The notes under the pieces: model-generated
Told to the model about the DNA's origin: nothing
Databases searched by the model: none
What the model saw: only the letters and a program-made list of their open reading frames with translations
Made by a program: the position numbers and the translations under genes
Origin: a virus
Lineage: Duplodnaviria > Heunggongvirae > Uroviricota > Caudoviricetes
Virus record (IMG/VR): IMGVR_UViG_2690316311_000019
Length of the DNA: 64,000 nt
Reading direction: 5' to 3' (one strand)
Shown: in pieces, positions 5,839 to 14,792 of the stretch
How the letters are laid out: each line of letters begins with the position of its first letter
Position numbering within the stretch: position 1 is the stretch's first letter

Positions 5839-6194
5839 AGCACCACGTCCTGTGTGATAGTTATATCCCTGATACGAATGGATATTTTCAACTTATCAAA
5901 AGCATCTCCCTCGGCTACTGACAAGCCAGAAATCGGTATGTCAGGTAAATCTACCGTCAGTTTTTGCAACAGCATTGCCTCAACCGCAATTTGAACATGC
6001 GACAAGTTGGTCGGTTCGTGTTTAAACTGCGGTAAAACATTGCCCCATGACGGATCTCCGTATACCTCACCCTGATAAGTGTTTAGCCACTCATATAAAC
6101 GAGCGCCCCAGGCCTCCTCCTGGGACTCATACGTTTTTACGCCGGATAACTCCAGCGTCAGCAAAGGATCAATTTCGTTATTGTTGGCCATCAA
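5835..6194 (-). CDS. Hypothetical tail-associated protein
   Basis: 119-aa ORF coupled between baseplate gene and sit. Confidence 0.4.
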   Translation of the reverse strand: MMANNNEIDPLLTLELSGVKTYESQEEAWGARLYEWLNTYQGEVYGDPSWGNVLPQFKHEPTNLSHVQIAVEAMLLQKLTVDLPDIPISGLSVAEGDAFDKLKISIRIRDITITQDVVL

Positions 6195-9100
6195 TCAACT
6201 CTCGCGTAGTCATTCATCAACGGATCATCAATTGACAGTGGTACCGAGCGCATAACGCCCGGCTGAGGCGTGCTGACCTTTACGACAGTTCCCTGGCCTT
6301 TCGCCGAGTCTTTAGTGTGCTCTTCAATCCTGGCAAGCAATGAGGTCATCTGCGCAAACAGCCGCTTCGTTTCACCATCAAGTGAAACGGTATTATCAGC
6401 CAACTGCATTGTCGGCTTGGCACCGGAACCGCCAAGGTCACTAATAACCTGCCCGTCTATCTGCATACGACCGGTTGGTTGCTGCAAATCGTTGGCGGCA
6501 GTCGTCACCTGGGACGTGGAGGCTGGTTCAGGCGCATTATTTTTCCGCATCCCCGGCGAGTTGCGGAGTTTATCGAATAGTCCATCAATCCCCATTTGTG
6601 CGCCGAGATGGTCAAAGTAACTTGAGTTGTTGGCCACCGGACGCGCCTCTTCAACTGGCATCGGAGTATCAACATACACATTGCCAGCTGCTGTTGCGGT
6701 CCCCTTCCCTCGTGCACGTTCTTCTAGCGTTCCCTGAACGACTTCCCGACGCATCCCCCGGCCATTCATGAATTTGTTGACCAGATCGTTAACGCCAACA
6801 GCATTGCCGATTTTGTCGACCAGACCGCCTTTCTCAAACGGGCTATCACCAGGGGTAAACGCCAGGCCAGTAGACTGATCGATAACGGCGTTATCAGGTA
6901 TCTTTTCGTAAATTGCTGGTGCGCTATGATCTACCTTAGAGCCATAAACGGCACCATTATTGAGCATCTGCTGATACCCTCTGACACGAGTAACATATTC
7001 GCCGGTACCTGCGACTACTCTCCCCTTATCAACATGCCCCATACCAGCATGATAGGCAGCTATTGCACGACCCTGGTCACCGTTATAACGGTTCATCAGC
7101 ATACTTAGGTATCTGGCGGCACCATCAGCTGCTTTTCGTGTATCCATGGCATCAGCATCGCTGAGTCCAAGATCCTCCCTTGTACCTTTAGTGATCTGAA
7201 AAGCCCCAAGGGCAGATGAAAGTTTGTTCCCGTTTTTGTCTACTGGATTTCCAGTTCTCTGGCCTGCACTAGACTCTGCGGATGCAACTGCTGACAGAAT
7301 CCCTTTTTCAAGCCCATACTTACGTTCAAGCTCATCAAAATAATCGGCATTGTCAGAAATCCATTGGTATCCGGCAGCATTTAATTTTGGCAAAGAAACA
7401 TCCTTGCCATTGTTAAATCGACGTTTATCTATCTCATATGCACTTAATGCTTCCTCCTTACCTGTAGCAGACTGGCCCAAGGCAGCATCAATTGTTTGTG
7501 CTGCTTTATTTCCTGTTTCTACGGCATTTGCATTGATAATCTGATTAGCAGTTTCTTTAACTGTTTTATTGCTATCTTTCGCCATATCCAGGGCCGCATA
7601 TATCACGCGGGCAGCAATATTAGTCTGTTTGGCATCGGATTCAGTTTTAGAATCAGATGTCCCCTGGTGGCTATTAACCGGAACTTTTGACTCTGGAGTG
7701 ATTTCTTTCGCATTAGCCTCGCCGATCGGATTGGGTATTTTTGATACAATCATTGCCGCAGGGGTATTTTTAACGGCATCAACCGCTGCATCTAATGCTT
7801 TACCTGGTAAATTTTTAACCCCATCCCAAATATTACCAGCCGCCTCTTTAATGTGTTTCCCTGGGTTCTTAATGAAATCAATTGCACTATCAATTGCATC
7901 ACTGAAAACCTGTTTCAGGTTATCGACAGTAAAGAAGTCTTTGATGGCATCCAGCTTTTCAAGCAGCTTATTAGATGTATCGCTAAACCATGCTGAAACA
8001 GCATCACCAATCTTTGCTGTGTAATCATCGAACTTGGTAGAAATGGTGTCGCCAAGGTTAGAAATATATGTTTCTAAGTTGGTAATCCCACTATCAATGG
8101 CCAGGGCAATACTTTCCGTCGAAAATGATTGCAACATATTGCCGATATCCTCAAATCCAAGTGATTTGAGAACCTCACCAATGGCGCTGCTAATACCAGA
8201 TACCAGTCCCCCCATATCAAGAACATTAGCTAACGTATAAGCGGCTTTTTGCTGGAATGATGGATCTTGTCCTGATTTAAGCCCAAACGCTCGACGTTGC
8301 GCTTCTGTATCATTCCAACCGGTTACCGCACCATAAATACCTCCAGCCACTGTGCCGACTAGGGGAATTGCGCGTAACGCCCCTTTACCAACTGCCTTTA
8401 ATCCAAGTTTACCTGCTGCCCGGGCAGCCAAATCTCCGCCTTCATGAGCGAGAGTCTTCTTGCCACCACCGCGTAGCATTCCTACAAGTTTCTTTGCCCC
8501 CAGAGCGCCAAAAGCGAGTGCTCCAGCTTTTTTCAGCATGCCACGCCCCATTAACAACGACGCGACGCCACCGGCCCCCTTCCCTAACAGGCTAAATAGT
8601 TTGGACAGCAAGCCGCCCTTCTTTTTACCGGTGTTTTTGGCTATCTGATCAAGGGCACGGAGAATCTTGTCATTGCCCTCTTTAATTTCGCTGGTCTGCT
8701 CCTGAAGTTCCTGAACCGTCCGTTTTTGGGTGTTAACCTGAACGACATCGGCACTATTTTGCGATTTACGCCTAAAAAAACCTTTTCTACGGCTGTTATC
8801 GTCATTGCCACGAATCACATCGGCAATAGACTTTCTGGCACCATTAAGCGATCCACCAACTTCTTTTGATATCCCGCCAAGCTCCTTCCCTGCTGCCCAC
8901 AATGGACCAGCAACGGCATAACCTAACGCATCGACGGCACGAGTCTCTGAAGGGTTACCTATGCCTTCAGCTACTTTTGACAGTTTTTTTAATAAACCTG
9001 ATTCAGCATTTAGACGCTCATCATCCTCTTTGCGCCTGGCCTTTTCAGCACGTTCAGCACGGGCATCTTCCGCTGCGGCCTTACTCCCTGACTTTCCAAT

Positions 9101-9565
9101 AAAACGACCACGCGCATCGCGTTGGTTTTGGCTTTTTTGCGCACCGCCTTTTTGACCGAACATTTCGCGAGCGTGTTCGGCTGCTTCGGTCCGTTGCGCC
9201 TTTACATCTTCTGTTATAGCCTTCTTGCGTCGTTTTTTACCCTTTCGCGTAGTTGATTTGGCCTGCGGTTCCTGTAGAGCAACATCCTCCTGAACTACAC
9301 GAGAAACGTCCCCTAAATTAAGCCGTTTCATTGCGTCAACAATAGGGTCTACTGATGGCGCATTGGCCACAAAGTCTGGCCGGGAATTTTCGATTGTGCG
9401 ATTTAATGCCGACACACTGCGAGAGACAGGATCAACAGTTGCAACTCGTTCCCCTTTCAAATCTTCAACAGCTTCCCGAATACCTGCAAGCTCTTCCAGC
9501 TCTTTCGCGCTGGCGGTTTCAACTGTCCTTATAACATCGTCAATATTGGCGTTTTTTCTTTCCAT
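6191..9565 (-). CDS. sit: Structural injection transglycosylase / tape-measure-like protein with soluble lytic transglycosylase domain
   Basis: 1124-aa ORF; SLT motif region ...AVASAESSAGQRTGNPVDKNGNKLSSALGAFQITKGT...AAYHAGMGHV; Gly/Lys/Ala-rich coiled central part. Confidence 0.8.
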   Translation of the reverse strand: MERKNANIDDVIRTVETASAKELEELAGIREAVEDLKGERVATVDPVSRSVSALNRTIENSRPDFVANAPSVDPIVDAMKRLNLGDVSRVVQEDVALQEPQAKSTTRKGKKRRKKAITEDVKAQRTEAAEHAREMFGQKGGAQKSQNQRDARGRFIGKSGSKAAAEDARAERAEKARRKEDDERLNAESGLLKKLSKVAEGIGNPSETRAVDALGYAVAGPLWAAGKELGGISKEVGGSLNGARKSIADVIRGNDDNSRRKGFFRRKSQNSADVVQVNTQKRTVQELQEQTSEIKEGNDKILRALDQIAKNTGKKKGGLLSKLFSLLGKGAGGVASLLMGRGMLKKAGALAFGALGAKKLVGMLRGGGKKTLAHEGGDLAARAAGKLGLKAVGKGALRAIPLVGTVAGGIYGAVTGWNDTEAQRRAFGLKSGQDPSFQQKAAYTLANVLDMGGLVSGISSAIGEVLKSLGFEDIGNMLQSFSTESIALAIDSGITNLETYISNLGDTISTKFDDYTAKIGDAVSAWFSDTSNKLLEKLDAIKDFFTVDNLKQVFSDAIDSAIDFIKNPGKHIKEAAGNIWDGVKNLPGKALDAAVDAVKNTPAAMIVSKIPNPIGEANAKEITPESKVPVNSHQGTSDSKTESDAKQTNIAARVIYAALDMAKDSNKTVKETANQIINANAVETGNKAAQTIDAALGQSATGKEEALSAYEIDKRRFNNGKDVSLPKLNAAGYQWISDNADYFDELERKYGLEKGILSAVASAESSAGQRTGNPVDKNGNKLSSALGAFQITKGTREDLGLSDADAMDTRKAADGAARYLSMLMNRYNGDQGRAIAAYHAGMGHVDKGRVVAGTGEYVTRVRGYQQMLNNGAVYGSKVDHSAPAIYEKIPDNAVIDQSTGLAFTPGDSPFEKGGLVDKIGNAVGVNDLVNKFMNGRGMRREVVQGTLEERARGKGTATAAGNVYVDTPMPVEEARPVANNSSYFDHLGAQMGIDGLFDKLRNSPGMRKNNAPEPASTSQVTTAANDLQQPTGRMQIDGQVISDLGGSGAKPTMQLADNTVSLDGETKRLFAQMTSLLARIEEHTKDSAKGQGTVVKVSTPQPGVMRSVPLSIDDPLMNDYARVD

Positions 9566-11164: not shown

Positions 11165-11755
<591 letters not shown>

Positions 11756-11885
11756 TTAACCGATTCTACGAGTTGTCATTTGTTACCGGTCAGTCTACAC
11801 ATTTCAGATACTACGTTAAAACAACTCAAGTGCTTCAAGTAGCACATCGTCATCAACACCCAATCCGAAGATGCGGAGATAAAAT

Positions 11886-13070
11886 TCAAGCCTTAAGAGG
11901 CTTTGTGTATGTTCGTGTAATCCAACCAGTAATAAACTCATCCCCTGATTTAACCTGCACGTAAAGCCATTGACGATCTTTCTTATCTAAAATAGCAACA
12001 ATTGTGTTTTTGCCAATGCATTCAATCACTTCACTATTTAAAGAAGGACTGACATGTAATCTTACGTTATCACCAGTTATAAACCTAAAACCATTGAGAT
12101 CTTCCCACTTAATTTCTGTGTTTTCTTTAATTAATTTTTGTTTTGATATTGGTGCATCCTCATATAGGGATACAGAATATGATTCTGTCTTGTGTATTTG
12201 CGATAAGATTTGTTCTTTTGCATAATCAGCAATAGCGCCAAGCACCACTTCTGTTAAAAGCCACATAATAATAAACTGAAGCGGGTGAGGGAGCGACTTA
12301 AATGAATCAATGAACGTCGGACTGGATTTATTTAATCCTTTGTCTTGAACATCACTTTCGTTGTGAGATGTTTCAATAGCACCTTCGACATAAGCCTGTG
12401 CAATTGATGAAAGACTTTGCTCCATTATTTGATGTAATGAAGCCTTTTGCGCTAGGGTATATTGTTTTAATGATTCTTTTATTTCATTGTTTAAATCTAT
12501 CTTATGACTTACATTTTGTCGCAATTCATTAAGTATTGCTTGCATGTTATTTAAACCAGCTTGCTTATTAAGCATCTCGAACTGGTTTCGTAACGGCATA
12601 GCAATTTCTGCCTGCTTCCTTAGCATTTGAATGTATTTATTTGCATCATGCGGGGGATAAACCTTGGCCTGTTTCTGTAGAATTTCAAGAAATTCACGAT
12701 GCTTGCTATTTATTCTTCTCAAGCTCGTCATGTTCGCAAGCTGTTTTTTAACAGAATCACTAAGTAACGATTGCAAATTCAATCTTGCTATTTGTTCTTG
12801 AGCTAGCCGCCCTATTCTTAACTGTTCTTGCAAGTTTGCCATATGTTCTCTATACGATGGAATGATTGCGTTTTTTTGCAGTTCTGCCAACTGTCTAACC
12901 AAATTATTAGAAGCATATTCTGATTTTAATAAATCACTTGCCGATGTATATCCTGGCATTTTGATTTTACTTAAATTATCACGCCAGGTAATATTTGAAT
13001 CTCTATTATAGAGATCGCTTACTGAGCCAAGTGCAAGTTTTTTAATATCCTTCACTTTATTCACCGTCAT
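11886..13070 (-). CDS. Membrane-anchored coiled-coil protein with C-terminal SH3b-like domain (AT-rich cassette gene 2)
   Basis: 394-aa ORF; Q/L-rich heptad N-terminal region, one TM segment (LQFIIMWLLTEVVLGAIADY), C-terminal SH3-like stretch GDNVRLHVSPSLNSEVIECIGKNTIVAILDKKDRQWLYVQVK; markedly AT-rich codon usage. Confidence 0.55.
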   Translation of the reverse strand: MTVNKVKDIKKLALGSVSDLYNRDSNITWRDNLSKIKMPGYTSASDLLKSEYASNNLVRQLAELQKNAIIPSYREHMANLQEQLRIGRLAQEQIARLNLQSLLSDSVKKQLANMTSLRRINSKHREFLEILQKQAKVYPPHDANKYIQMLRKQAEIAMPLRNQFEMLNKQAGLNNMQAILNELRQNVSHKIDLNNEIKESLKQYTLAQKASLHQIMEQSLSSIAQAYVEGAIETSHNESDVQDKGLNKSSPTFIDSFKSLPHPLQFIIMWLLTEVVLGAIADYAKEQILSQIHKTESYSVSLYEDAPISKQKLIKENTEIKWEDLNGFRFITGDNVRLHVSPSLNSEVIECIGKNTIVAILDKKDRQWLYVQVKSGDEFITGWITRTYTKPLKA

Positions 13071-13563
13071 CTTGTTTTAAACACCCGTCATTTTTAGCTT
13101 CTGTATAAATACTGGAAATACCATCCAGAGTGAATGATGTGATTCGACTCGAACCGATATATACATCTATTTTTTTTTCATTTGTAGATGACACTGCCTT
13201 CCAAAATGAATACCATCCCCTACGATTAGGAGCAGTGTTTTGCGTGCCAATATTAAAACTATCCGGGCCAACAATTAAAGTAATTACATCTGCTTTACGT
13301 GATATTGTGTCGCGTGTAGAAAAATCGGCATTCTCTTTTCCTCCGCTTACATACAAATTTCTTCCAGCGATATGATCTTCTGAACCTTCCCTTGCTCCAG
13401 CATCACAGGAAAAGTTAATTGTGTAACCATCGTCATTGGTTGCAGAGATTTCTCTCCACCCTTGCTCACCTCCTACCGTCCAAACGGTAGAACCTGCCAT
13501 TGCTGATAATGGCAGAAAAGAGAACATTAATAAAAAGCTATACAATGACTTATACAATTTCAT
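13057..13563 (-). CDS. Secreted protein with signal peptide (AT-rich cassette gene 1)
   Basis: 168-aa ORF, N-terminal MKLYKSLYSFLLMFSFLPLSAMA signal peptide, overlaps downstream gene by 14 nt; AT-rich. Confidence 0.55.
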   Translation of the reverse strand: MKLYKSLYSFLLMFSFLPLSAMAGSTVWTVGGEQGWREISATNDDGYTINFSCDAGAREGSEDHIAGRNLYVSGGKENADFSTRDTISRKADVITLIVGPDSFNIGTQNTAPNRRGWYSFWKAVSSTNEKKIDVYIGSSRITSFTLDGISSIYTEAKNDGCLKQDDGE

Positions 13564-13651
13564 ATTTTTATCCTTTTGTTTTTAGATATTATAGGCATAG
13601 TCCATATTGTTAGATCCACTATGCCCAGAGAATTTAATATTATTTATTAAA

Positions 13652-14143
13652 TTATGGGGCTACACCCGGCCCCCTGGCTCGTTCTTCAAGCGTACCCTGT
13701 ACGTTTTGATGGCGCATTCCTGGGGCATTTCTTATTGAGTCAATGCCATTTCTTCCAACATCTTCTTTATTAACGGCATTGCTCGCCACCAGCACACCCC
13801 AGCTAGGGATAGCAAAATCAGGAGCGGTTTCGCATGCCTTTACCATATAATCGAAAGTGCTTCGATTGATCTCGTTTGCGTCGGGATTTAATAGGCGAGA
13901 ATATTGATATTTAGCATTTTCGTTGGTTGCGACTTTATATAGTTCTTGCTGCACCATCGCTTCAGAAAGTTTAAGACGTTTCATATCTGACAGTAACTTC
14001 TTGCGCATGGATTCGTCTTGACTGACAGCAAAGCCGTAAACGTGCCCAAGGTATTTCGTATAATCGGTACAAATCTCCTTCACGCTTGATGCTGCATTAA
14101 CAGTCCCAGCCATAAATAATAACGGTAGTAATAGTTTTCTCAT
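13652..14143 (-). CDS. Secreted protein carrying a Sit-like C-terminal motif (possible superimmunity-type protein)
   Basis: Signal peptide MRKLLLPLLFMAGTVNA; C-terminus GMRHQNVQGTLEERARG matches Sit segment GMRREVVQGTLEERARG; start at 14143 preferred (GGTGAGG RBS). Confidence 0.5.
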   Translation of the reverse strand: MRKLLLPLLFMAGTVNAASSVKEICTDYTKYLGHVYGFAVSQDESMRKKLLSDMKRLKLSEAMVQQELYKVATNENAKYQYSRLLNPDANEINRSTFDYMVKACETAPDFAIPSWGVLVASNAVNKEDVGRNGIDSIRNAPGMRHQNVQGTLEERARGPGVAP

Positions 14144-14239
14144 TATAACCTCACCTGCCTTATAACTCATTTAGGGTACATATTTTCGCCTTTAAAAAAA
14201 AGAGGTTATTAGATCCAATTGTGCATTTATTAAACAAGC

Positions 14240-14256: not shown

Positions 14257-14439
14257 GTATTTTTAAGTCGCGAATGCTATCTTTTCGCATCATATTGACC
14301 TTTTAATCGTTCAGGCTTATAGTTCCGCCGTCGTAGCAAATTCTGCGACCAGGTTTGACAGCCTGAATGATTGTGCGGACAACCGCAGATTTCCGATATT
14401 GCGGTATTTTTGTGTCCGTTAAACCGCGTTACGCCCAAA

Positions 14440-14520
14440 TTATGGTGGGGCGTGATGGGGAGGCTTCGGCCTGCTGGTTTCACAATCGCCAGTCTGTCAA
14501 CCCTGTCACGTCCTGCCACC
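14440..14520 (+). ncRNA. Candidate c4-like antisense regulatory RNA
   Basis: Hairpin-rich non-coding stretch (GGAGGC-TTCG-GCCTG stem with UUCG loop) containing CTGTCAA at 14494-14500, complementary to TTGACAG copies at 14355-14361 and 14524-14530 that flank it; boundaries approximate. Confidence 0.3.
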
Positions 14521-14570
14521 TGTTTGACAGCGGGTAGCAGGTTGTTAAACCTGATTGTGAGGCCGTAACT

Positions 14571-14792
14571 ATGGTTAATGCCAATCCTTGCGCACGCCAA
14601 GAATTCATCTGGCGTTTCTATTCCTGTAAAAAACACCACTATCACTTCGTTATCGCAGCAACAGAAGACGAAGCACGCTCTCAATTGCCTGATGGCCCCT
14701 GCATTTTCACTGCCCGTTTTTCAACTAACTCGCGCAATTCACTTAGTTACTGGAACCTCCCCTTCTCTGCCGACGTTCAGGGGGTTTTATGA
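14571..14792 (+). CDS. icd: Small protein overlapping ant start (Icd-like by position and size)
   Basis: 73-aa ORF ending in ATGA overlap with the ant start. Confidence 0.45.
   Translation: MVNANPCARQEFIWRFYSCKKHHYHFVIAATEDEARSQLPDGPCIFTARFSTNSRNSLSYWNLPFSADVQGVL

What the first reader, a model, noticed from the sequence alone, without database searches (positions are those of the whole stretch)
11886..13651. AT-rich two-gene cassette (secreted protein plus membrane SH3b coiled-coil protein) between tail genes and immI
ORFs 13057-13563 (signal-peptide protein) and 11886-13070 (coiled-coil, single TM, C-terminal SH3b-like domain) overlap by 14 nt and are far more AT-rich than the flanking backbone, the signature of recently acquired cargo. 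An envelope-located pair at the locus where P1-type phages carry superimmunity functions suggests a superinfection-exclusion or envelope-targeting module of uncharacterised type.
Basis: partly seen in the sequence, partly recalled or inferred. Interest (0 to 1): 0.6.

Follow-up and report, generated by a model that had tools for sequence, protein, structure and literature searches.

The report
Envelope-protein cassette at P1 sim locus
This is one common allele of an already-known hypervariable accessory locus in P1-type phage-plasmids; it encodes a periplasmic YfjT-family protein and a membrane-anchored SH3 protein of untested function, which plausibly block infection by related phages.

Summary
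Two tightly coupled minus-strand genes (13057-13563 and 11886-13070) lie in the most AT-rich stretch of the window: 35.5% GC against a mean of 47.4% (SD 2.6%). They sit between pmgC-tub-pmgB-sit and immI (C4 RNA confirmed by Rfam), exactly where P1 carries simABC.

The "recently acquired two-gene cargo" reading is only half right. The secreted protein belongs to the YfjT family (PF27224). A YfjT-type gene preceded by a long form of SimA is ancestral at this position in Salmonella and Enterobacter P1 relatives. P1's 52-aa SimA is a remnant of that upstream gene.

The SH3 gene is a separate, mobile, AT-rich single gene. It stands alone at another locus in Citrobacter elements. It encodes a hypervariable helical N-terminus, one hydrophobic helix and a nearly invariant SH3b domain.

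Both genes are under purifying selection (dN/dS 0.14 and 0.45). Synonymous divergence is mostly 3-7 times that of the flanks, so old alleles are being shuffled.

About 14% of E. coli P1-type elements match the cassette query and 5% carry this exact cassette. There is no homology to SimC, PADLOC defence proteins or known inhibitor folds.

Superinfection exclusion at the envelope is the best guess (about 0.4) but is untested. Interest is moderate.

The parts
11763..11781 (-). Late promoter LPsit (-22 box AAATGACAA, -10 TAGAAT) driving pmgC-tub-pmgB-sit. It lies downstream of the cassette, just inside the conserved left flank.
   Evidence: Homology to the annotated P1 LPsit. Exact pattern match in the window. 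No such motif lies upstream of the cassette.
11793..13663 (.). AT-rich replaced block, the allele-specific DNA of this sim-locus variant.
   Evidence: Breakpoints against P1 and Ro157c2. GC 0.355, the lowest in the window. No terminal repeats.
11886..13070 (-). SH3 protein gene, 394 aa from ATG 13070 or 389 aa from GTG 13055. Predicted bitopic inner-membrane protein with a cytoplasmic N-terminus and a periplasmic SH3b domain.
   Evidence: PHROG 7086, unknown function. dN/dS 0.45.
12285..13070 (-). N-terminal ~260 aa: helical, Q/K/L/N-rich, five degenerate L-x-K/E-Q/N-A/L units, net charge +8 over the first 245 aa. Hypervariable in sequence and length across the family (9-84% identity).
   Evidence: (secondary structure only). 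dN/dS 0.49.
12222..12284 (-). Single hydrophobic helix (aa 263-283, LQFIIMWLLTEVVLGAIADYA), the predicted transmembrane anchor.
   Evidence: Kyte-Doolittle 19-mer 1.83. Hydrophobicity is conserved while the sequence varies.
11907..12071 (-). SH3b (SH3_3) domain, aa 334-388. It is 69-99% identical across the family and ends in the invariant RTYTKP.
   Evidence: Weak match to the C-terminal domain of the phage amidase PHROG 1794. dN/dS 0.21.
11888..11903 (-). Weak terminator-like hairpin (6-bp stem, -7 kcal/mol, then GAAUUUUAU) overlapping the SH3 gene stop codon.
13057..13563 (-). YfjT-family periplasmic protein gene (168 aa). Signal peptide aa 1-23 (nt 13495-13563). Invariant Cys53 and Cys161.
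   Evidence: PF27224 'YfjT' on homologs. Family profile against K-12 YfjT 47.5 bits. AlphaFold pLDDT 82. dN/dS 0.135.
13582..13637 (-). Intergenic hairpin (10-bp stem, about -13 kcal/mol) next to a TATAAT hexamer and the AAAAGGA ribosome-binding site upstream of the YfjT-type gene. Function unknown.
13652..14170 (-). Upstream operon partner: the long form of SimA (172 aa from ATG 14170; PGAP start Met10 at 14143). It has a signal peptide and is C-terminally truncated by the AT-rich block compared with the 215-aa Ro157c2 gp35.
   Evidence: PHROG 3933.
13661..13756 (-). Sit-like motif in long SimA (aa 139-170, GIDSIRNAPGMRHQNVQGTLEERARGPG).
6677..6805 (-). Corresponding conserved segment of Sit (aa 921-963, ...KFMNGRGMRREVVQGTLEERARGKGT...).
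14317..14523 (+). immI start: the c4 a1/b1 target element (14317-14369) and C4 antisense RNA (14438-14523), transcribed divergently from the cassette operon.
   Evidence: Rfam RF03163 at 56 bits and RF01695 at 68.4 bits. P1 annotation.

Best explanation
Description (confidence about 0.9).
- The region is one allele of the multi-allelic sim accessory locus of P1-type phage-plasmids.
- It combines two separable parts. The first is a divergent AT-rich allele of an ancestral locus resident, a secreted and probably disulfide-bonded periplasmic YfjT-family protein. The second is an added mobile single-gene 'moron' for a bitopic inner-membrane protein.
- That membrane protein has a fast-evolving cytoplasmic helical N-terminus and a nearly invariant periplasmic SH3b domain.
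- The SH3b domain is inferred to bind peptidoglycan, as SH3b domains of phage and bacterial cell-wall enzymes do.
- Together with the upstream long-SimA gene, the two genes form a leftward operon. It starts in the P1-conserved PsimA/PsimB region next to the C1 operator of c4.
- The operon lies upstream of the late promoter LPsit and outside its control. Expression from the prophage, like sim, is therefore inferred but not shown.

Function (confidence about 0.4).
- The products act in the envelope of the lysogen to block genome delivery by incoming P1-type or other phages. This would be a Sim-like exclusion achieved with unrelated proteins.
- The two genes may well contribute independently and need not form a complex.
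For: - Same position, orientation and upstream control region as P1 simABC.
- The locus is accessory: P1 sim genes are non-essential while the adjacent tail genes are essential (PMC10695390).
- All alleles examined at the site encode exported proteins.
- Predicted envelope location of both products.
- No late-promoter motif lies upstream, and LPsit lies downstream.
- The genes are real and under selection, with dN/dS 0.135 and 0.45.
- Multi-allelic locus: P7 type 164, simC type 128, Ro157c2-type YfjT gene 84 and cassette-query matches 73, out of 509 E. coli genomes with a P1-type pmgC. Deep allelic dS of 0.31-0.67 against about 0.10 in the flanks. This fits balancing or diversifying selection, typical of exclusion and defence loci.
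- The long-SimA + YfjT pair is syntenic with pmgC-tub-pmgB-sit across genera. Long SimA carries a copy of a conserved Sit segment that partly tracks the cognate Sit.
- Characterised injection-blocking exclusion proteins are likewise envelope proteins, and escape from several of them (HK97 gp15, TP-J34 Ltp, P22 SieA) maps to tape-measure or ejection proteins (PMC10883804).
Against: - No phenotype data exist.
- No homology to SimC or SimB, to PADLOC models or to any named PHROG or NCBIfam family.
- YfjT homologs also occur in the K-12 CP4-57 element and in 300-kb jumbo phages that lack a P1-type Sit, so the family is not tied to P1 injection.
- In the SH3 protein the periplasmic part is the conserved part and the cytoplasmic part is the variable part. 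This is the opposite of what a periplasmic arms race with incoming virion proteins would predict.
- The SH3 gene is found away from the sim locus in Citrobacter elements, so position-based inference does not apply to it.
- The promoter assignments are consensus or homology inferences only.
Confidence: 0.4

Rival explanations
1. Lysogenic-conversion genes that change host envelope physiology (adhesion, stress or serum resistance, protection against colicins or peptidoglycan-targeting effectors) and have no role in phage exclusion.
For: AT-rich moron signature in two different genomic contexts. YfjT homologs occur in the non-P1 element CP4-57 beside the envelope genes ypjK and yfjS. The best viral structural neighbour is annotated 'putative adhesin'. 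There is a marginal fold resemblance to the Bartonella invasion-associated protein IalB. The hosts are mostly O157, O103 and O145 or animal-derived E. coli.
Against: The YfjT-type gene is syntenic with the tail and injection genes across P1 relatives in several genera. That is hard to explain by a host-niche function. The annotation and fold hits are weak. YfjT has no reported phenotype.
Confidence: 0.2
2. Accessory functions in the phage's own lytic cycle. Examples are periplasmic or membrane factors that tune lysis timing, protect the infected cell envelope, or assist Sit-dependent penetration or release.
For: The genes are co-directional with the tail operon and immediately upstream of it. 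In the Enterobacter element the long-SimA + YfjT pair is embedded between two blocks of tail genes on the same strand. An SH3b domain related to those of phage amidases is present. The terminator after the SH3 gene is weak, so transcription may read through into pmgC.
Against: P1 lacks both genes and a full-length long SimA, yet it is fully viable, and its locus is non-essential. Exported proteins cannot be cytoplasmically assembled virion parts. No late promoter motif lies upstream. P1 lysis genes are elsewhere (own knowledge of the P1 map).
Confidence: 0.15
3. The SH3 protein is an envelope-anchored sensor or abortive-infection effector. The periplasmic SH3b domain monitors peptidoglycan, for example damage by an incoming transglycosylase. 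The variable cytoplasmic domain triggers or targets a response.
For: The architecture is a conserved periplasmic wall-binding domain plus a hypervariable, repeat-expanding cytoplasmic domain. This places the variability on the cytoplasmic side. The gene works as a stand-alone moron.
Against: No effector domain is recognisable. No PADLOC match. The N-terminal variability may simply reflect low constraint on a spacer, since dN/dS of 0.49 is still below 1.
Confidence: 0.1
4. Decaying or neutral hitch-hiking DNA with no current function.
For: AT-rich DNA. The neighbouring long-SimA gene is truncated by the insertion.
Against: The reading frames are intact in dozens of plasmids. dN/dS is 0.135 and 0.45, and the SH3 domain is nearly invariant.
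Confidence: 0.03

Closest known systems
P1 simABC (SimC superimmunity / superinfection exclusion)
   Same: Identical genomic position and orientation between LPsit/pmgC and Oc4/c4. Shared upstream region and shared SimA N-terminus (94% over 50 aa). Low GC. Non-essential. Signal-peptide products.
   Different: No sequence similarity of either cassette protein to SimB or SimC. The cassette adds a membrane-anchored SH3b protein that P1 lacks. The exclusion phenotype is known for Sim (own knowledge: Devlin 1982; Kliem & Dreiseikelmann 1989) and untested here.
E. coli K-12 YfjT (CP4-57 cryptic prophage; Pfam PF27224)
   Same: The 168-aa protein is a family member: profile 47.5 bits over nearly the full length, similar size, signal peptide, two conserved Cys, and neighbouring small envelope-protein genes.
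   Different: About 27% identity. The P1-group members form their own narrow clade (17 representative clusters in 1.84 billion proteins). YfjT itself has no known function.
Injection-blocking exclusion proteins: HK97 gp15, P22 SieA, T4 Imm, TP-J34 Ltp
   Same: Prophage or moron-encoded envelope proteins. The model proposed here would block DNA delivery in the same way. Escape from HK97 gp15, P22 SieA and TP-J34 Ltp maps to tape-measure or ejection proteins (PMC10883804). That parallels the Sit-like motif in the adjacent long SimA.
   Different: No homology. None of these has an SH3b domain or a ~260-aa cytoplasmic helical domain. Function here is not shown.
T4 Spackle and Ivy/MliC/PliC periplasmic lysozyme or transglycosylase inhibitors
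   Same: Small secreted periplasmic proteins. Inhibiting the incoming Sit transglycosylase would be an attractive mechanism for the YfjT-type protein.
P7 Upf50.0/Upf50.5 and Ro157c2 gp34/gp35 (alternative alleles of the same locus)
   Same: Same site, and exported products. Ro157c2 gp34 is a 29%-identical YfjT-type homolog, and gp35 is the full-length version of the upstream gene here.
   Different: The P7 proteins are unrelated: a DUF5384 protein and a glycine-rich lipoprotein. Ro157c2 lacks the SH3 gene.
SH3b cell-wall-binding domains of phage amidases (PHROG 1794) / Pfam SH3_3
   Same: The C-terminal ~55 aa match SH3_3 in all 28 family members. There is a weak match to the C-terminal domain of phage amidases.
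   Different: No catalytic domain. The domain is membrane-tethered through an upstream helix. Peptidoglycan binding is inferred only.

Membership tests
P1 Sim (SimC) superimmunity proteins | Sequence homology to SimC | tested here: not met
   BLASTP of both cassette proteins against P1 SimC and SimB gave no hit with E < 0.9.
P1 Sim (SimC) superimmunity proteins | Encoded between pmgC/LPsit and Oc4/c4, transcribed towards pmgC | tested here: met
   Breakpoint mapping and P1 annotation. C4 RNA confirmed by Rfam.
P1 Sim (SimC) superimmunity proteins | Signal-peptide-processed periplasmic product | tested here: inconclusive
   The YfjT-type protein has a conserved SPase I-type signal peptide. The SH3 protein has none. 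No localisation experiment was possible.
P1 Sim (SimC) superimmunity proteins | Excludes superinfecting P1 after adsorption | not testable with these tools
   Needs plaque, transduction and adsorption assays.
YfjT family (Pfam PF27224) | Match to the family model or founding member over the full length | tested here: met
   PF27224 is precomputed on the 93%-identical P0048 and on 20 or more homologs. The A2 profile against K-12 YfjT scores 47.5 bits over profile positions 4-136. The local Pfam copy lacks the model.
YfjT family (Pfam PF27224) | About 150-170 aa secreted protein with two conserved cysteines | tested here: met
   Alignment A2 has invariant C53 and C161 and the signal-peptide cleavage Ala. 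K-12 YfjT has Cys at the corresponding positions.
Bacterial SH3 domain (Pfam SH3_3, PF08239) | Score at or above the Pfam gathering threshold | tested here: inconclusive
   This copy scores 26.0 bits against a cutoff of 27, E 1e-5. All 28 aligned family members match, best E 2.3e-9. PF08239 is precomputed on most homologs.
Bacterial SH3 domain (Pfam SH3_3, PF08239) | SH3 beta-barrel fold | tested here: inconclusive
   The AlphaFold model of the full protein has pLDDT 36 and is not interpretable. PDB sequence and profile searches found nothing.
Injection-blocking inner-membrane exclusion proteins (HK97 gp15 / P22 SieA / T4 Imm type) | Inner-membrane localisation | tested here: inconclusive
   One conserved hydrophobic helix, a positively charged N-terminus and no signal peptide. 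This is prediction only.
Injection-blocking inner-membrane exclusion proteins (HK97 gp15 / P22 SieA / T4 Imm type) | Sequence or profile homology to a characterised member | tested here: not met
   PHROG hits are only to unknown-function families 7086 and 23259. No PADLOC, Pfam or NCBIfam match.
Injection-blocking inner-membrane exclusion proteins (HK97 gp15 / P22 SieA / T4 Imm type) | Blocks DNA entry; escape maps to tape-measure or ejection proteins | not testable with these tools
   Requires phage challenge and escape-mutant mapping.
Periplasmic lysozyme / lytic-transglycosylase inhibitors (Spackle, Ivy, MliC/PliC) | Fold similarity to a known inhibitor | tested here: not met
Known anti-phage defence systems (PADLOC-DB v2) | Match to any defence-protein model | tested here: not met
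   The only hit is a spurious Csx1 match at E 0.086.
Phage 'moron' (independently acquired accessory gene) | Deviant composition and variable presence between otherwise collinear genomes | tested here: met
Phage 'moron' (independently acquired accessory gene) | Own promoter and terminator; expression from the prophage | tested here: inconclusive
   Only consensus-level promoter matches, no more than in shuffled sequence. Weak hairpin terminator at -7 kcal/mol. No expression data.

The most novel reading that the evidence does not exclude
The long-SimA, YfjT-type and SH3 proteins together form a previously undescribed periplasmic 'gate' against P1-type injection. Long SimA displays a decoy copy of a conserved segment of the Sit tape-measure/transglycosylase (GMRxxxVQGTLEERARG) that co-varies with the cognate Sit. 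It titrates a host or phage partner needed for Sit to cross the periplasm. The peptidoglycan-anchored SH3 protein and the YfjT-type protein position or reinforce the block. This would be exclusion by molecular mimicry of the injection protein. It would also reinterpret P1 simA as a relic of the ancestral system.
Probability: 0.12. Interest if true: 0.7.

Novelty: new variant of a known kind. Interest (0 to 1): 0.4.

Why it matters
P1 is a classic model phage, and P1-type phage-plasmids are present in about 9% of complete E. coli genomes (509 of 5,426). The mechanism of its sim exclusion locus has never been resolved.

This work shows three things. The locus is a multi-allelic hotspot. P1's own simA is a remnant of a conserved ancestral periplasmic gene. 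That gene is paired with a YfjT-family gene.

That gives a cheap experimental entry point: clone four or five alleles and challenge them with P1, P7 and a coliphage panel. It would address both the Sim mechanism and the function of the orphan K-12 gene yfjT.

If exclusion is confirmed, the SH3b-anchored bitopic protein would be a new architecture among exclusion proteins. If not, this is simply another uncharacterised lysogenic-conversion cassette.

Tried and rejected
1. Full-length AlphaFold of the SH3 protein gave pLDDT 36, so it was unusable and no fold search was run on it.
2. PDB sequence and profile searches with the conserved C-terminal module found nothing.
3. The AFDB50 fold library was unavailable.
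5. PADLOC and NCBIfam gave no hits.
6. No tandem DNA repeats were found and protein internal repeats are only weak, so 'repeat protein' holds only for distant homologs.
7. A transposon or IS origin was rejected because there are no terminal direct or inverted repeats at the borders.
8. Mimicry of virion proteins by the SH3 or YfjT-type proteins was rejected. No similarity to any other window ORF was found; only the upstream long SimA resembles Sit.
9. Relatedness of the P7 locus proteins to YfjS, YfjT or the cassette was rejected.
10. The first ungapped dN/dS estimate for the SH3 gene was wrong because compensating indels shifted the register. It was redone with a protein-guided codon alignment.
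11. Literature searches found no functional study of yfjT, of this SH3 family, or of non-P1 alleles of the sim locus. The P1 genome paper was not held in the library.
Full report
**What the window is.**
- The region is 100% identical to plasmid pF1273-3 of E. coli O157:H7, a P1-type phage-plasmid.
- On the minus strand lie sit (6191-9565), pmgB, tub and pmgC (11165-11731). Then come the three ORFs of interest.
- On the plus strand follow the immI genes c4, icd and ant1, then kilA and repL.
- Rfam confirms the C4 antisense RNA at 14438-14523 and its a1/b1 element at 14317-14369.

**Check of the observation.**
- Both ORFs exist as described.
- The 14-nt overlap depends on using ATG 13070. PGAP uses GTG 13055, 1 nt after the upstream stop. 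Either way the genes are tightly coupled.
- GC over 11886-13651 is 35.5% against a window mean of 47.4% (SD 2.6% for same-size windows). This is the minimum in 64 kb. GC3 is 0.28-0.29 against 0.41-0.53 in neighbours.
- P1 homology (about 97%) stops at 11784 and resumes at 14004, inside simA. Homology to phage Ro157c2YLVW stops at 11792 and resumes at 13664.
- No terminal repeats flank it.

**The secreted protein (168 aa).**
- It has a conserved SPase I-type signal peptide (AMA|G, with the -1 Ala invariant) and two invariant cysteines.
- Homologs carry Pfam PF27224 'YfjT'.
- A profile of the P1-group family hits E. coli K-12 YfjT, from the CP4-57 cryptic prophage, at 47.5 bits over nearly the full length.
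- The family is narrow: 17 representative clusters among 1.84 billion proteins. It also occurs in 300-kb Klebsiella jumbo phages.
- The AlphaFold model is confident (pLDDT 82, pTM 0.76): a beta-sheet-rich fold with two helices.
- No function is published for yfjT.

**The SH3 protein (394 aa).**
- It has no signal peptide. The N-terminal ~245 aa are predicted helical, Q/K/L/N-rich and carry net charge +8.
- One hydrophobic helix (aa 263-283) keeps its hydrophobicity but not its sequence across the family.
- The C-terminal SH3_3 domain scores 26.0 bits against a cutoff of 27 in this copy. It matches in 28 of 28 family members, best E 2e-9.
- The inferred topology is a cytoplasmic N-terminus with a periplasmic SH3b domain.
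- Across 47 clusters, all in Enterobacteriaceae and mostly on contigs of about 90-100 kb, identity to this copy varies by region. The SH3 domain is 69-99% identical, the helix-linker 28-99%, and the N-terminus 9-84%. The N-terminus also shows repeat expansions in Citrobacter and Salmonella.
- The full-length AlphaFold model is unusable at pLDDT 36, so 'coiled-coil' remains unverified.

**Selection.**
- Against an 87%-identical allele (NZ_CP009051), dN/dS is 0.135 for the YfjT-type gene.
- For the SH3 gene it is 0.45 overall: N-terminus 0.49, helix-linker 0.38, SH3 domain 0.21.
- The backbone values are 0.057 for long SimA, 0.069 for pmgC and 0.089 for tub.
- dS is 0.31-0.67 in most of the cassette, though only 0.14 in the SH3-domain segment, against about 0.10 in the flanks.
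- The alleles are therefore much older than the backbones they sit in. This points to allelic shuffling and not to a single recent import.

**Comparative context changes the picture.**
1. The third ORF (13652-14170) is the long form of SimA. P1's 52-aa SimA is 94% identical to its N-terminus and is a truncated remnant. Ro157c2 gp35 (215 aa) is the full-length form. Here the AT-rich block cuts off about 45 C-terminal residues.
2. Long SimA (189-194 aa), a 4-nt gap, a YfjT-type gene, about 60 nt, then pmgC-tub-pmgB-sit: this arrangement is conserved in Salmonella and Enterobacter P1 relatives. There pmgC is only 75% identical to the window's copy.
   - In the Enterobacter element the pair has backbone-like GC (0.54 and 0.51 against 0.55) and sits between two tail-gene blocks.
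   - The pair is therefore ancestral at this site. P1 simB/simC and the P7 upf50.0/50.5 genes are replacements.
3. The SH3 gene is separable.
   - It is absent from Ro157c2 and from the Salmonella and Enterobacter elements.
   - In E. coli it accompanies at least two different YfjT alleles and two different upstream genes.
   - In Citrobacter P1 relatives it is a solitary AT-rich island (34-37% GC against 45-52%). There it lies on the opposite strand between a PmgS-like block and an HNH gene.
4. Allele counts among 509 complete E. coli genomes with a P1-type pmgC are as follows.
   - P7 type: 164.
   - simC type: 128.
   - Ro157c2-type YfjT gene: 84.
   - Any match to the SH3-cassette query: 73.
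   - This exact cassette: 24.
5. The sim region is already published as one of eight low-GC hypervariable regions of P1-like phage-plasmids (PMC9603915).

**Expression signals.**
- The late promoter LPsit (11763-11781) is conserved downstream of the cassette. No other late-promoter motif lies nearby.
- The region homologous to P1's predicted PsimA/PsimB lies upstream of long SimA, from 14004 onward.
- Sigma-70 consensus matches are no more frequent than in shuffled sequence.
- A weak hairpin followed by a U-run overlaps the SH3 stop codon (-7 kcal/mol). A 10-bp hairpin sits in the gap between long SimA and the YfjT-type gene.
- Prophage-state expression is therefore an inference by analogy with sim.

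**Mechanism.**
- Shown: the position, the composition, the predicted envelope targeting, purifying selection, the multi-allelic nature of the locus and the separability of the two genes.
- Inferred: peptidoglycan binding by the SH3b domain, prophage expression and an exclusion function.
- I rank Sim-like envelope-level exclusion first, at about 0.4. The reasons are as follows.
   - The locus is accessory (PMC10695390).
   - All its alleles examined encode exported proteins.
   - The ancestral pair is linked to the injection genes.
   - Characterised injection blockers are envelope proteins, and escape from several maps to tape-measure or ejection proteins (PMC10883804).
- Against this reading:
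   - There is no homology to any characterised exclusion or defence protein.
   - YfjT homologs occur outside P1-type phages.
   - In the SH3 protein the variable part is cytoplasmic, not periplasmic.
- The rivals are host-physiology conversion (0.2), a lytic-cycle accessory role (0.15), an envelope-anchored sensor or abortive-infection role for the SH3 protein (0.1) and junk DNA (0.03).

**Side lead.**
- The C-terminus of long SimA (GIDSIRNAPGMRHQNVQGTLEERARGPG) resembles two segments of the phage's own Sit (aa 925-957 and 997-1010). BLASTP gives E 1e-6, and the Sit PHROG matches at E 3e-5.
- DNA identity is only 74% over 53 nt, so this is not a recent recombination scar.
- The Sit segment KFMNxRGMRxExVQGTLxxRAxG is conserved even though Sit overall is only about 50% identical between lineages.
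- The long-SimA copies partly track their own Sit.
   - EERARG appears in both proteins here, against AERAYG and ADRAYG in the other Sit proteins.
   - FMNSRGMRH matches 9 of 9 in the Salmonella element.
   - Only GMR is kept in the Enterobacter element.
- This suggests a periplasmic decoy of a Sit epitope. It rests on three lineages and is untested.

**Verdict.**
- This is a new variant of a known kind, namely accessory or exclusion-type alleles at a known hypervariable phage locus. Interest is moderate and the experiments needed are cheap and decisive.

Noticed in passing
window 13652-14170 (-), motif at 13661-13756; Sit motif at 6677-6805 (-): The ORF upstream of the cassette is the long form of P1 SimA, which means P1 SimA is a truncated remnant. 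Its C-terminus carries a copy of a conserved segment of the phage's own Sit tape-measure/transglycosylase (GMRxxxVQGTLEERARG). The copy partly co-varies with the cognate Sit in Salmonella and E. coli lineages, so it may be a periplasmic decoy.
   Followed up: partly
L016 8428-9477; L017 8412-9507; L013 3412-4507: In Enterobacter and Salmonella P1 relatives, the long-SimA + YfjT-type pair lies directly upstream of pmgC-tub-pmgB-sit. In the Enterobacter element no immI or lytic replicon intervenes, and the pair lies between two tail-gene blocks. This suggests immI, kilA and repL were inserted at this junction in the P1 lineage.
   Followed up: partly
L004 5077-5427 (also L005-L007): Another E. 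coli allele of the locus replaces long SimA with a 116-aa multi-pass membrane protein upstream of a 158-aa YfjT-type gene and a 344-aa SH3 gene. This echoes the K-12 arrangement ypjK (small membrane protein), yfjS (lipoprotein), yfjT.
   Followed up: no
window 13582-13637 (-): A 10-bp hairpin (about -13 kcal/mol, z -2.5) lies in the 88-nt AT-rich gap between long SimA and the YfjT-type gene, next to a TATAAT hexamer. It could be a processing or regulatory element, or an internal promoter region.
   Followed up: partly
L008 5001-6362; L009 5001-6446: Citrobacter homologs of the SH3 protein carry expanded N-terminal tandem peptide repeats (for example SVSLSERITKLAQGSTIAD, and KQAGF/GG-type units). 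Protein length ranges from 318 to 481 aa among the full-length or nearly full-length family members, while the SH3 domain stays nearly invariant.
   Followed up: partly
window 45583-45601 (-): This is a second perfect match to the P1 late-promoter pattern (AAATGACTAGCGGTAGAAT), presumably another Lpa-dependent late promoter of the backbone.
   Followed up: no
window 14277-14684 (-): A 135-aa TTG-initiated ORF lies antisense to the c4 a1/b1-C4 RNA region. It is almost certainly spurious, because it overlaps conserved RNA elements and is not annotated in P1 or RefSeq.
   Followed up: no
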